Below are positions 27,001-30,000 of a DNA stretch of 64,000 nt, piece after piece (positions within the stretch are counted from its first letter, which is position 1; each line of letters begins with the position of its first letter). A program made the position numbers. The stretch spans positions 124,001 to 188,000 of the forward strand of contig NW_024055492.1 of the NCBI RefSeq assembly GCF_902713615.1, read 5' to 3'. This stretch comes from Scyliorhinus canicula (Eukaryota).

Positions 27001-30000
27001 AGGGAGTATTCACAAACACCCGCTGGAGGCCCCAATAACACCCTTTGATTTTATTGTCAGTCTGCAGACAGAAGCTGGAGAACTGAACCCAGGCAGAGGA
27101 GAGGGAGGGAGAAAACTGGGACTGGAGGAAAGAAATGGTGCAGATGGTGAAATGGGTTTGGATTTCAGCCCAGGGAGGAGGGAGAGTATGTGGGACGGGG
27201 ATTTACAGCATTGGGGGAACAAGAGAGCAAACAATGTTCCAGAGAAAGTAGAATTGTCTGTTCAGAATTTCTATCCTGGACTGAGTGCTGACTATTGTTT
27301 TTTTTATTAAATATAGAGTACAAAATTGTATTTTGTCCCAATTAAGGGGTAGTTTTATCCATCACATCTTTTTGGATTGAAACCCATGCTGACAAGGGGA
27401 GAATGTGCAAAGTCCATATGGACAGAGACCCGGGATCAAACCCGGGTTCTCAGCTAACCACTGAGCCACCGTGCCTGCCCCTAATGACTTTTATAAACTC
27501 CTCTTACAGGATATTACAAGGGGAGGATTTACAGATGGAAACTCAAATCAAACCTCACAGCAAGATTTAACAGAGTCACTCCATTCATCAGGACCTGAAT
27601 ATCATTGGCCTGTGAATGTAGACGAAGAAATGTTTGTCTGCTCTGTCTGTAGGAAAAGATTTTCAACATCAGTGTGACTGGGACTGCTGCCTCACGGAGC
27701 CGAGGTCCCAGGTTCGATCTCGGCCCCGGGTCACTGTCCGTGTGGAGTTTGCACATTCTCCCCGTGTTTGCGTGGGTTTCAGCCCCACAACCCAAAGATG
27801 TGCAGGCGAGGTGGATTGGACATGCTAAATTGCCCCTTAATTGGGAAAAAAGTGGATACTCTAAATTTATTTTTTAAAAAGATCAGCGTTACTGAAAAAA
27901 GACCCGATACACACACACTTGAGTTCAACTGATCATCAACCTTAGAGAGGGACAAGGACACCAGCAGCATGCTGAAACCATGGCAATGTGGGGACTGTGG
28001 GAAGGGATTCAGATCTCCATGTGAGCTGGAAATTCATCACCATCGTCACACCCGCGACAGACCATTCGCCTGTTCTAAGTGTGGGAAGGGATTCACTCAG
28101 TTATCCGAGTGAGGATTTACCAGGATGTGGGAGCCGAGCTGGTGAGGAAGTGAGTGGCCTTTAATAAGGTTCAGGCTGCTCTATCTAAGGAAGGAGTTCC
28201 ATTCGGGGTGGTTTACCCAGCAAAGCTACGAGTTGCAGATGAGTCCAAGGACTTTCATTTTGAGACTCCAGAGGAGGCGACTGCCTTCATTGAGGGGCTC
28301 ATTGGTCTGGGAGTATGATTCTCGCTTCGGTTGTTTTGGTTTCGAAATTTGCGAGAGGCCCCGGGTTCAAATCCCGGACAAGCCCTTTGATAATGTTTTC
28401 TGTTGGCCAAGCAACATGTTTTAAGGGGTAGTAACTGTAGCACAGTGGGTAACACTGTTGCTTCACAGCTCCAGGATCCCAGGTGCAAATCCTGGCTTGG
28501 GTCACTGTCTGTGCGGAGTCTGCATGTTCTCCCTGTGTCTACGTGGGTTTCCTCCGGGTGCTCTGGTTTAATCTCACTAGTCACGAAAGCCATGCTATTA
28601 AGTCATTTGTACATTCTGAATTCTCCCTCTGTGTACCCAAACAGGCATCGGAATGTGGTGACCAGGGGCTTTTCGCAGTAACTTCATTGCAGTGTTAATG
28701 TTTTTTTAAAATATGAATTTAGAGTGCCCAATTCATTTTTTCCGATTGAGGGGCAATTTAGCATGGCCAATCCACCTACCCTGGACATCTTTGGGTTGTG
28801 GAGCCAAAACCAAGGCAAACACGGGGAGAATGTGCAAACTCCACACAGACAGTGACCCGAACCTGGGATCCCGGCGCCGTGAGGCAGCAGTGTAACCACG
28901 GTGGTCAGTGGGTGGTTGGCGGGTACATTGGTGATGCTGGTGAATGGCTATGCCCCTAACTAGGAAAATGTGGCATTTGTAAAAAGAATTGTTCCCCCAA
29001 ACATGGATACACATCAATTAATTCTTGGAGGAGATTTCAACTGTTTTCTGGATCTGAAATGAACTGGTCCAAGCCCATTCAACCGCTACAAAAACAGGAA
29101 AAGGGAATGAAACCAGATGGACCTCCCGGCATCGACCCAGGCACCGGAAATGACAACGGCAAACCCAGCAAAAGGTAAAGAAAAGCTGTTCAATAGCAGA
29201 TTGTAAAAGGATTATGGGACACAGATTTAAGATTGTGAGCAAGATCTACAGGGGAGATACGAGGAAGAAAATTTACACAGTGTGGTAATGATTTGAACTC
29301 AATGCTTACACACAAATGTCAATAATCTCCAGGTCCTGATCACCAGAAAAGTGCTGTCAGAATTTGATGTGAGGATTGATTGTGAGTTTCCTGTCCCTTT
29401 CTAAGTCCCTGTGAAAGAAGTTTACAAAGGCATCACTGTCAGTCCAGAAATAAAATTCAGGAAAGATAAGCATTTTTCCTGGTTTGAGTTTGCTGTCTGT
29501 AAATCCTCCCTGACTAATCCCCTATAAAAGGAGTTTCCAAAATCAATTAGTCAGTTCAGTATAGAAATTCACAACGACCTCTCTTCCTGCTCCCTGGTCC
29601 AGGATTACCGTTTATGCCGCCTCGCCCCCCCCGCCCCGCTGCACACTGACCCTCGTCATCAGCAGTCCCCTGATTTGAGGGTCATGCTGACTTAGGGTTG
29701 TGTGTTTCTGCCCTGGGTCTTCATGTGGCTGAACAGGGCCACAAAGCTTTGGACACATCGGGCAGGATGGACAATGAGACAGTGAAACCTGGAGAGCAGG
29801 ATTGGCTTCCTTTTCTTTCCATCTCTGCCACCGCTTTGCATCATCAATAAGACATTGGGACTGAAAGACTAATCCAGTTTGATGGACAAGTTGTCTCCAT
29901 TCCGAACAATGGGGAACAAGCTCCTCCCACTCATTGAAACATCGGCCCCGACAAAGATGAGAAACGCGCATGCGCCCTGATGCACATGCAATAAAGATGG

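What the first reader, a model, noticed from the sequence alone, without database searches (positions are those of the whole stretch)
28296..28385. Intron-containing tRNA-Pro(CGG), an isoacceptor not normally spliced in vertebrates
Seen: an 18-nt insert exactly one base 3' of the anticodon (canonical 37/38 site). It contains CGAA, complementary to T32-T33-C34-G35, and has an A third from its 3' end, as expected for the anticodon-intron pair used by TSEN. Established: vertebrate tRNA introns are typically in Tyr-GTA, Ile-TAT, Leu-CAA and Arg-TCT. This copy has two acceptor-stem mismatches, a damaged A box and T at position 37, so it is probably a pseudogene. It implies an intron-bearing Pro-CGG family in this lineage. 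I cannot verify novelty without a database.
Basis: partly seen in the sequence, partly recalled or inferred. Interest (0 to 1): 0.65.

Follow-up and report, generated by a model that had tools for sequence, protein, structure and literature searches.

The report
Dead proline tRNA copy with intron-like insert
This is a broken, non-working copy of a proline tRNA gene, lodged inside an old jumping element, that carries an 18-base insert exactly where tRNA introns sit; it hints at, but does not prove, an intron-bearing proline tRNA in this animal.

Summary
Window 28296-28385 (+) matches the Rfam tRNA model in a local scan (30.4 bits, cut-off 29). It reads as Pro(CGG) with an 18-nt insert (28332-28349) one base 3' of the anticodon. 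It is dead: two adjacent acceptor-stem mismatches, D-loop changes, T at position 37, and, new here, a TTTT run inside the insert (28334-28337).

The insert looks intron-like. A 5-bp helix joins positions 32-36 to the insert. Only 2.5-3.1% of random 18-mers give that.

The copy is not an original tRNA locus. It lies inside a degraded L1-type LINE, between an ORF1 C-terminal-domain fragment and an endonuclease fragment. Both LINE identifications are weak.

A second decayed intron-type tRNA, Arg-TCT at 16772-16862, also follows a LINE coding fragment. Each relic is followed by a same-strand SINE.

Best reading: a dispersed pseudogene, possibly a retrocopy, of an unspliced intron-bearing Pro(CGG) source.

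Whether an intact family exists could not be tested, because no vertebrate genome collection was available. A shark-genome preprint already reports many intron-containing tRNA loci, with no isotypes given in the text I saw. Interest is modest.

The parts
28296..28385 (+). tRNA-Pro(CGG)-like relic including the insert (90 nt)
   Evidence: Rfam RF00005 at 30.4 bits, E 1.9e-4 in the local scan. ARAGORN -i finds 28295-28386.
28296..28331 (+). 5' exon-like part (positions 1-37), with anticodon CGG at 28328-28330 and T37 at 28331
   Evidence: Sequence and cmscan alignment. No other copy in the window.
28332..28349 (+). 18-nt intron-like insert at 37/38 (equivalent partition 28333-28350)
   Evidence: Sequence. 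5-bp helix between 32-36 and 28342-28346. Unique in the window.
28334..28337 (+). TTTT run inside the insert, flanked by G (Pol III terminator-like)
   Evidence: Sequence. The terminator role comes from established knowledge of Pol III and is not a tool result.
28350..28385 (+). 3' exon-like part (positions 38-73), with an intact B-box-like GGTTCAAATCC at 28364-28374
   Evidence: Sequence and cmscan alignment. No other copy in the window.
28396..28399 (+). First T4 run, 11 nt after position 73 (terminator-like). A second T4 lies at 28419-28422.
   Evidence: Sequence.
28100..28295 (+). L1-type LINE ORF1p C-terminal-domain fragment (one in-frame TGA at 28151-28153). It abuts the tRNA 5' end.
   Evidence: AF2 model pLDDT 66.4. 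In Foldseek against PDB, 10 of the top 11 rows are LINE-1 ORF1p, E 0.015-0.26, TMq 0.61-0.69. No hit in Pfam, by PDB sequence search or in the Atlas.
28426..28701 (+). tRNA-derived SINE copy. Its head starts 40 nt after the tRNA end, and its tail is cut at 28701.
   Evidence: Self-BLAST and alignments.
28701..28920 (-). Second SINE copy, opposite strand
28934..29050 (+). L1-type LINE ORF2 endonuclease fragment (aligns to residues 110-150 of solved L1 endonucleases)
   Evidence: 9 of 9 PDB sequence hits at E<=10 are LINE-1 ORF2p or endonuclease, best E 0.12. Pfam found nothing.
16772..16862 (+). Comparison locus: decayed Arg(TCT) tRNA with an 18-nt insert at 37/38 (16809-16826), C32 opposite G at -3
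   Evidence: Rfam 52.1 bits, ARAGORN, sequence.

Best explanation
A non-functional, dispersed copy (pseudogene) of a nuclear Pro(CGG)-type tRNA gene that still carries an intron at the canonical 37/38 site.

Shown:
- The cloverleaf match, the insert's position and its 5-bp pairing with the anticodon loop.
- The damage: two adjacent acceptor mismatches, D-loop changes, T37 and T4 inside the insert.
- Fragments that read, on weak matches, as the two parts of one L1-type LINE on either side.

Inferred:
- The insert was inherited from an intron-bearing source gene or its unspliced transcript. It was not acquired by a random insertion.
- The copy arrived inside the LINE. LINE copies are 3'-complete when they insert, yet here an internal ORF1 fragment abuts the tRNA's first base.
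- The likely route is retroposition of a Pol III primary transcript. The copy starts at or within about 3 nt of +1, keeps the intron, has no CCA and runs into a T-run.
- Both acceptor mismatches are what G-to-A change at two CpG steps would produce.
- If transcribed today, Pol III would largely stop at the T4 in the insert. Any spliced product would lack G37 and a sound acceptor stem, and would be discarded.
For: - The tRNA model matches at exactly the stated coordinates.
- The insert sits one base 3' of the anticodon.
- With the cloverleaf imposed, the lowest-energy anticodon arm (-7.8 kcal/mol) stacks a 5-bp anticodon-intron helix on the anticodon stem.
- Such a helix occurs in only 2.5-3.1% of random 18-mers.
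- The same window holds an Arg(TCT) relic, from a family known to be spliced in vertebrates. It has an insert of the same length at the same site, which shows that intron-bearing copies decay in place here.
- The B box is intact and a T4 lies 11 nt downstream.
- L1 ORF1p-fold fragment upstream and L1 endonuclease fragment downstream.
- No CCA after position 73.
- CpG observed/expected is 0.95 in the relic against 0.40 in the window. That fits a fairly recent death.
- Passages of PMC10485636 give the criteria: introns between 37 and 38, pairing with the anticodon loop, and a conserved proximal pair.
- Pre-tRNA retropseudogenes are reported for human. I saw this only as cited in a passage of PMC4476161.
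Against: - There is only one copy in 64 kb, so inheritance of the insert is not shown.
- The 5-bp helix pairs position 32 with -4 and leaves a 4-nt bulge. The canonical register (-3, 3-nt bulge) gives 2 bp.
- An alternative fold with a hairpin inside the insert is only 0.6 kcal/mol worse.
- The free fold of the 90 nt is not a cloverleaf and is not unusually stable: z -1.53, and 16 of 200 shuffles fold as well.
- T37 in place of the G37 expected of proline tRNAs (established knowledge) fits an insertion that replaced one base.
- T4 inside the insert would be selected against in a working gene.
- No target-site duplications were found.
- The LINE evidence is weak. Foldseek gave no hit at E<=0.001 on a model of pLDDT 66. 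The best PDB sequence E was 0.12. Pfam found nothing.
- The Pro assignment of the body beyond the anticodon rests on my recollection of vertebrate tRNA-Pro. ARAGORN calls it Arg(tcg).
Confidence: 0.6

Rival explanations
1. One-off insertion. An intronless Pro(CGG) copy, already dead or dying, took an unrelated insertion of about 19 nt that replaced G37. The resemblance to an intron is coincidence.
For: - Single copy in the window.
- G37 is missing.
- The insert is T-rich (10 of 18) and holds a T4 run, which a working Pol III gene would not tolerate.
- The helix register is off by one from the canonical A-I geometry.
- An A at -3 is expected by chance in 39-50% of inserts.
Against: - The site is the single canonical one among roughly 70 possible junctions in a tRNA.
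- The 5-bp helix has a 2.5-3.1% chance on top of that.
- The insert is not a copy of nearby sequence.
- The neighbouring Arg(TCT) relic shows the same 18-nt, 37/38 layout.
Confidence: 0.25
2. Template-switch chimera. Both intron-type tRNA relics in the window were made when a LINE reverse transcriptase, while copying a SINE or LINE RNA, jumped onto a nuclear unspliced pre-tRNA and then onto LINE mRNA. The result is LINE fragment, then pre-tRNA, then SINE or LINE, in one insertion. This is a special case of the best explanation, not an alternative to the insert being an intron.
For: - The same order occurs on the same strand at both loci.
- At the Arg locus, a repeat that I read from recall as the ORF2 end of a CR1-like LINE stops 1-3 nt before tRNA base 1. 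Its only tool support is a weak RVT_1 match in the upstream part of the other copy (E 0.013). That other copy in the window runs about 110 nt further.
- At the Arg locus the SINE head abuts the tRNA 3' end within about 5 nt.
- At the Pro locus, an L1 ORF1 fragment abuts tRNA base 1 and a SINE head starts 40 nt downstream.
- With 11 plus-strand SINE heads in the window, a head within 45 nt downstream has P 0.78% per locus and 6e-5 for both. This figure is post hoc.
- Tripartite chimeras made by double template jumps are described (abstract of PMC2104539).
- tRNA/LINE-1 chimeras are reported in mammals (passages of 10.1101/2025.02.02.635956).
Against: - No target-site duplications were found.
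- The SINE 3' parts are broken by nested repeats.
- At the Pro locus two T4 runs lie between the tRNA and the SINE.
- The two loci involve different LINE types.
- The mammalian tRNA chimeras are mostly half-length and antisense, unlike these.
- The P value was computed after the pattern was seen.
Confidence: 0.2
3. A working intron-containing tRNA-Pro(CGG) gene.
For: - Intact B box and a downstream T4.
- CpG not depleted: 0.95 against 0.40 for the window.
- Score just above Rfam's cut-off.
Against: - Two adjacent acceptor mismatches and a changed A14 and D-loop G.
- T37 and T4 inside the insert.
- 30.4 bits, against 52.1 even for the decayed Arg relic.
- It is nested in LINE debris.
Confidence: 0.03
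4. It is an Arg(TCG) relic with a 20-nt insert, as ARAGORN calls it, or the head of a tRNA-derived SINE.
For: ARAGORN -i output.
Against: - ARAGORN's reading needs a one-base shift of the anticodon stem and puts the insert after the seventh loop base. It also adds a -1:73 pair.
- The cmscan register gives CGG with the insert at 37/38.
- There are no other copies in a window that holds at least 17 SINE heads.
- The unit ends at position 73 and is followed by T-runs, like a gene and unlike a SINE body.
Confidence: 0.04

Closest known systems
Canonical eukaryotic (TSEN-spliced) tRNA introns, as in vertebrate Tyr-GTA, Ile-TAT, Leu-CAA and Arg-TCT genes
   Same: - Position between 37 and 38.
- Short length: 18 nt, the same as the Arg-TCT relic in this window.
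- A stretch of the insert pairs with the anticodon loop. The criteria come from passages of PMC10485636.
   Different: - Isoacceptor Pro(CGG) is not among the families named for human (passage of PMC12168002: four spliced tRNAs) or used as pre-tRNA markers in zebrafish.
- The proximal pair is in the -4 register.
- T4 lies inside the insert.
- The host tRNA body is damaged.
- There is no evidence of splicing.
Yeast tRNA-Pro(UGG) intron
   Same: A proline tRNA with a canonical-position intron exists in a eukaryote (passage of PMC4090602: ten intron-bearing tRNA-Pro-UGG genes in S. cerevisiae).
   Different: A different anticodon and kingdom. No sequence comparison was made.
Pre-tRNA (tailless) retropseudogenes and LINE template-switch chimeras
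   Same: - An unspliced tRNA copy without CCA that runs into a T-run.
- It is lodged in and next to LINE and SINE sequence.
- The concept is taken from PMC4476161 passages and the PMC2104539 abstract.
   Different: - No target-site duplication or tail was found.
- The original report (Schmitz et al. 2004) was not read.
tRNA-derived SINEs of this genome
   Same: tRNA-like A and B box region. Such SINEs are abundant in the window, with 17 heads.
   Different: - The relic is single-copy here.
- It ends at position 73.
- It shares no similarity with the SINE family beyond generic box motifs.

Membership tests
Nuclear tRNA (Rfam RF00005) | Covariance-model score at or above the curated cut-off | tested here: met
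   30.4 bits against 29 in the local scan. Filtered out in both whole-window scans.
Nuclear tRNA (functional gene) | Seven paired acceptor-stem positions and conserved D-loop bases (A14, G18/G19) | tested here: not met
   5:68 and 6:67 are marked as non-pairs. Consensus A14 is G, and one D-loop G is A.
Nuclear tRNA (functional gene) | Internal Pol III promoter boxes, a downstream T-run, and no T-run of 4 or more inside the gene | tested here: not met
   B box intact at 28364-28374 and T4 at 28396-28399. The A box is changed at two positions, and T4 lies at 28334-28337 inside the insert.
tRNA-Pro isoacceptor CGG | Anticodon CGG in the canonical seven-base loop | tested here: met
   cmscan register. 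ARAGORN's shifted register reads TCG instead.
tRNA-Pro isoacceptor CGG | G at position 37 (established knowledge of proline tRNAs) | tested here: not met
   T at 28331.
tRNA-Pro isoacceptor CGG | Body sequence like vertebrate tRNA-Pro, scored with isotype-specific models | not testable with these tools
   No isotype models or vertebrate tRNA set were available. The likeness is recalled only.
Canonical eukaryotic tRNA intron | Located between positions 37 and 38 | tested here: met
   Insert at 28332-28349, one base after CGG.
Canonical eukaryotic tRNA intron | Anticodon-intron helix | tested here: met
   5 bp between 32-36 and 28342-28346. It is the lowest-energy arm under the cloverleaf constraint. 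2.5-3.1% by chance.
Canonical eukaryotic tRNA intron | Proximal A-I pair (32 with the third-last intron base) leaving a 3-nt bulge at the 3' splice site | tested here: inconclusive
   U32 can pair with A28347, but that register gives 2 bp. The stable helix uses -4 and leaves a 4-nt bulge.
Canonical eukaryotic tRNA intron | Removed by TSEN and ligase, or shared by paralogous genes | not testable with these tools
   No RNA data and no vertebrate genomes. There is no second copy in the window.
Pre-tRNA retropseudogene or template-switch chimera | Copy limited to the primary transcript (about +1 to the T-run), unspliced, no CCA | tested here: met
   The LINE ORF1 fragment runs up to the tRNA start. 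The insert is kept. T-runs lie 11 and 34 nt after position 73.
Pre-tRNA retropseudogene or template-switch chimera | Target-site duplications flanking the whole insertion | tested here: not met
   None found. The candidate direct repeats were chance-level or part of the SINE tail.
tRNA-derived SINE | Many dispersed copies with a shared body and tail | tested here: not met
   0 further copies of either exon-like part or of the insert in 64 kb, although 17 heads of the resident SINE are present.

The most novel reading that the evidence does not exclude
In this lineage, unspliced nuclear pre-tRNAs are repeatedly captured by LINE and SINE reverse transcription through template switching. This scatters intron-bearing tRNA copies through the genome. 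[quoted passage not shown] The captured set would include a Pro(CGG) gene with a real intron, an isoacceptor not spliced in other vertebrates studied.
Probability: 0.15. Interest if true: 0.6.

Novelty: new member of a known kind. Interest (0 to 1): 0.3.

Why it matters
If intact intron-bearing Pro(CGG) genes exist in this lineage, the set of spliced tRNAs in vertebrates is less fixed than the four-family picture suggests. It would also open the question of what a Pro intron does, for example gating m1G37. [quoted passage not shown] It would also be a warning for tRNA gene counts made from tRNAscan-SE output. As it stands, this single locus is a dead copy with no function of its own.

Tried and rejected
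- Free folding of the 90 nt and of the anticodon arm gave no significant structure (z -1.53 and -0.46). It is not informative on its own.
- The ORF1-like fragment found nothing in Pfam, nothing relevant by PDB sequence search (4 hits, E 0.43-1.5, none LINE) and nothing in the protein atlas (best score 0.78, below the lead level). Only the fold search pointed to L1 ORF1p.
- Pfam on six stop-as-X translations (three + strand frames each of 25100-28101 and 28900-32501) found no LINE domains, only C2H2 zinc fingers.
- Looked for the missing 3' remainder of the CR1-like LINE downstream of the Arg locus. None found.
- Looked for target-site duplications. The 12-nt repeat 28388/28693 turned out to be part of the SINE tail. 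The 10-nt repeat 28289/28745 is at chance level.
- Considered the insert as a tandem or templated copy of nearby sequence. No support.
- Literature searches for an intron-bearing Pro-CGG: one search found 2 papers (1 listed, irrelevant); two searches found 0.
- One search failed because the translation contained stop codons, and was re-sent without that item. One search failed on a comma in a search term, and was re-asked.
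Full report
OBSERVATION

The sequence at 28296-28385 (+) is tRNA-like. Rfam's tRNA model matches exactly these coordinates, over model positions 1-71 of 71, at 30.4 bits. The curated cut-off is 29, and E is 1.9e-4 in a 501-nt scan.

The match is borderline:
- The whole-window gathering scan returned one hit only, the Arg locus at 16772-16862.
- The whole-window scan at E<=1 returned 9 matches, of which the only tRNA was again Arg.
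- ARAGORN without introns found 2 genes and not this one.
- With introns allowed, ARAGORN found 4 genes. One was 28295-28386, called Arg(tcg) with a 20-nt intron.
- ARAGORN's drawing shows why. It shifts the anticodon stem by one base and adds a -1:73 pair.

In the cmscan register the loop reads T32 T33 C34 G35 G36 T37, then 18 nt (28332-28349), then T38 (28350). The insert therefore sits one base 3' of a CGG anticodon. Because Ts flank it on both sides, 28333-28350 is an equivalent partition, and that is the one I used.

- CGAA at 28343-28346.
- A at the third-last position of the insert (28347).
- C5.A68 and A6.C67 mismatches, flagged by cmscan.
- A14 replaced by G, and a D-loop G replaced by A.
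- T at position 37.

IS IT MORE THAN CHANCE?

- With the cloverleaf imposed, the lowest-energy anticodon arm (-7.8 kcal/mol) stacks a 5-bp helix on the anticodon stem. The helix pairs positions 32-36 with 28342-28346 and includes one G.U.
- A contiguous helix of 5 pairs starting at position 32, in register -3 or -4, arises in 2.5% of 200,000 shuffles of the insert. It arises in 3.1% of 200,000 random 18-mers drawn from the window.
- The A at -3 alone means little, because 39-50% of random inserts can pair there.
- The site itself is one junction among roughly 70 in a tRNA.
- Against this, the stable helix pairs position 32 with the fourth-last base and leaves a 4-nt bulge. The textbook register (third-last base, 3-nt bulge) gives only 2 bp.
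- A fold with a hairpin inside the insert is only 0.6 kcal/mol worse.
- The unconstrained fold is neither a cloverleaf nor unusually stable: z -1.53, and 16 of 200 shuffles fold as well.

For the criteria I rely on passages of the TSEN review PMC10485636. Eukaryotic tRNA introns lie between 37 and 38. They pair with the anticodon loop. Only the proximal pair of that helix seems conserved.

THE COPY IS DEAD

Both acceptor mismatches are what G-to-A change at two CpG steps (5-6 and 67-68) would produce. This is an inference from the sequence.

The relic is not old. Its CpG observed/expected ratio is 0.95, against 0.40 for the window and 0.0 for the Arg relic. The B box (28364-28374) is intact. 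T4 runs follow at 28396-28399 and 28419-28422. There is no CCA after position 73.

CONTEXT

The relic is unique in the window:
- Self-BLAST of 27000-30500 found no second copy of 28108-28433.
- The insert with up to 3 mismatches occurs once, which is itself (0.02 expected).
- Searched piece by piece, the 5' part, the insert and the 3' part gave only chance-level hits of 8-15 nt, E 0.11 or worse.

I did not build, fold or search the joined (spliced) sequence. The score of the spliced form therefore stays unknown.

Upstream fragment (28100-28295):
- It reads in frame into the tRNA.
- Pfam, PDB sequence search and the protein atlas did not recognise it.
- A single-sequence AlphaFold model of its 54 clean residues had marginal confidence (pLDDT 66.4).
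- In Foldseek against PDB, LINE-1 ORF1p structures filled 10 of the top 11 rows. These included the mouse ORF1p C-terminal domain (TM 0.69/0.59, 2.7 A over 52 columns).
- The E-values were only 0.015-0.26, and there were no hits at E<=0.001.

Downstream fragment, after two SINE copies (28426-28701 on +, 28701-28920 on -):
- 28934-29050 aligns to residues 110-150 of solved LINE-1 endonucleases.
- All 9 of 9 PDB sequences matched at E<=10 are LINE-1 ORF2p or endonuclease, with best E 0.12.
- Pfam saw no LINE domain in six stop-as-X translations of the + strand around the locus.

These two weak but concordant results place the tRNA relic inside a degraded L1-type element. It sits where the ORF1 tail, the spacer and roughly the first 105 ORF2 codons should be. 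LINE copies are complete at their 3' end when they insert. An internal LINE fragment that abuts tRNA base 1 therefore means the tRNA came into the LINE, or was made together with it. It was not a resident tRNA gene that a LINE landed beside.

A SECOND CASE IN THE SAME WINDOW

At 16772-16862 (+) lies a decayed Arg(TCT) tRNA (52.1 bits). It has an 18-nt insert at 37/38 (16809-16826), and C32 lies opposite G at -3. Arg(TCT) is one of the families with introns in human (passages and listings). It is also used as a pre-tRNA marker in zebrafish.

- The Arg relic is preceded by a repeat that stops 1-3 nt before tRNA base 1. From recall, I read this repeat as the ORF2 end of a CR1-like LINE.
- The other copy of that repeat (23611-23990) runs about 110 nt further.
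- The only tool support for a reverse-transcriptase origin is a weak RVT_1 match upstream in that copy (E 0.013).
- A SINE head abuts the Arg 3' end within about 5 nt.

The window holds 11 plus-strand and 6 minus-strand heads of this SINE. A plus-strand head within 45 nt downstream of a given point has P 0.78%. For both loci together P is 6e-5. This figure is post hoc and should be discounted.

No target-site duplications could be found, and the missing LINE remainder is not downstream.

WHAT IT MOST LIKELY IS

Most likely it is a dispersed pseudogene of an intron-bearing Pro(CGG)-type tRNA. It may be a retrocopy of an unspliced Pol III primary transcript: it starts at about +1, keeps the intron, has no CCA and ends in a T-run. 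It then decayed further.

Pre-tRNA retropseudogenes are reported for human. I saw this only as cited in a passage of PMC4476161 and did not read the original paper. Double template jumps that give tripartite chimeras are described in the abstract of PMC2104539. The tRNA/LINE-1 chimeras reported in mammals are mostly half-length and antisense (passages of 10.1101/2025.02.02.635956), unlike these.

The main rival is a one-off insertion that replaced G37 in a dead intronless copy. It explains T37, the T-richness and the T4. It needs the coincidence of site and helix.

WHAT IS KNOWN

- Human has four spliced tRNA families encoded by 28 genes (passage of PMC12168002).
- About 7% of predicted animal tRNA genes contain introns, mainly Tyr, Ile-UAU, Leu-CAA and Arg-UCU (section 12 of PMC12168002, read in full).
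- Yeast has intron-bearing Pro(UGG) genes (passage of PMC4090602).
[quoted passage not shown] It speaks of an 'expansion of intron-containing tRNAs'. No isotypes or mechanism appear in the text I saw (passages of 10.1101/2025.06.08.657570). Its figure and supplements were not available to me and may bear on this claim.
- The tRNAscan-SE 2 paper notes over 9,500 high-scoring tRNA-Ala predictions in elephant shark, which are repeats (passage of PMC8450103).
- I found nothing in print on an intron-bearing Pro-CGG in vertebrates. One search found 2 papers (1 listed, irrelevant). Searches found 0.

It also fits my recollection of the repeats. No tool tested it.

WHAT STAYED UNCHECKED

- The decisive test is other copies with the same insert, in this genome or in relatives. 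I could not run it. The collections on hand hold bacteria, archaea, phages, plasmids and E. coli.
- Isotype-specific tRNA models were not available. The Pro assignment of the body beyond the anticodon rests on recall.

VERDICT

- It is a new member of a known kind: an unspliced tRNA pseudogene of an unusual isoacceptor.
- Interest is modest unless the genome-wide test finds an intact family or a general LINE-tRNA-SINE pattern.

Noticed in passing
window 16772-16862 (+): Decayed Arg(TCT) tRNA (Rfam 52.1 bits) with an 18-nt insert at 37/38 (16809-16826). All CpGs are lost (o/e 0.0). It lies 11.5 kb upstream of the Pro relic on the same strand.
   Followed up: yes
window 16866 and 28426 (+): Each of the two intron-type tRNA relics is followed by a same-strand head of the resident tRNA-derived SINE, at about 4 nt and 40 nt. 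With 11 plus-strand heads in the window this has P about 6e-5 (post hoc).
   Followed up: partly
window 16489-16768 and 23021-23990 (+): Two copies of a repeat (74% identical over 268 nt) that I read, from recall, as the ORF2 end of a CR1-like LINE. Tool support is a weak RVT_1 match (E 0.013) in the second copy. The first copy is cut off right at the Arg tRNA start.
   Followed up: partly
window 17457-17786, 45014-45344, 60911-61248 (+); 7019-7355, 47641-47976, 62776-63109 (-): Six copies of a SINE subfamily of about 330 nt, 92-94% identical over their full length and 96-98% over the first 145 nt. This suggests recent activity. Older copies are 72-84% identical.
   Followed up: partly
window 16920-17043: Inverted pair of SINE fragments (60-nt arms, 75% complementary, 4-nt spacer) directly after the Arg locus. 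It draws sub-threshold matches to several miRNA models, which are best read as hairpin artefacts.
   Followed up: no
window 41372-47158: About 5.7 kb of a 39-nt tandem repeat (over 130 units in two blocks), open in several frames and interrupted by a young SINE at about 45013.
   Followed up: no
window 48387-51036, 35157-35981, 55265-55608: Further tandem arrays: a GT-rich 24/38-nt repeat of 2.6 kb, a 51-nt repeat of 16 units, and an 11-nt repeat of 31 units at 94% match.
   Followed up: no
window 24000-24916 (-), 10986-11369, 27924-28106 (+): C2H2 zinc-finger arrays with an 84-nt period. There is a 300-aa open frame at 24017-24916. The fragment at 27933-28112 matched Pfam zf-C2H2 and abuts the L1 ORF1 fragment.
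   Followed up: partly
window 6541-6621 (-): ARAGORN calls a tRNA-Phe(aaa) here, but Rfam does not. The spot overlaps a repeat that is also found at 28636-28692, so it is probably part of a repeat tail and not a gene.
   Followed up: no
window 51380-51571, 51686-51830, 51832-52067: Three runs of N (573 bases in all). They were left as they are.
   Followed up: no
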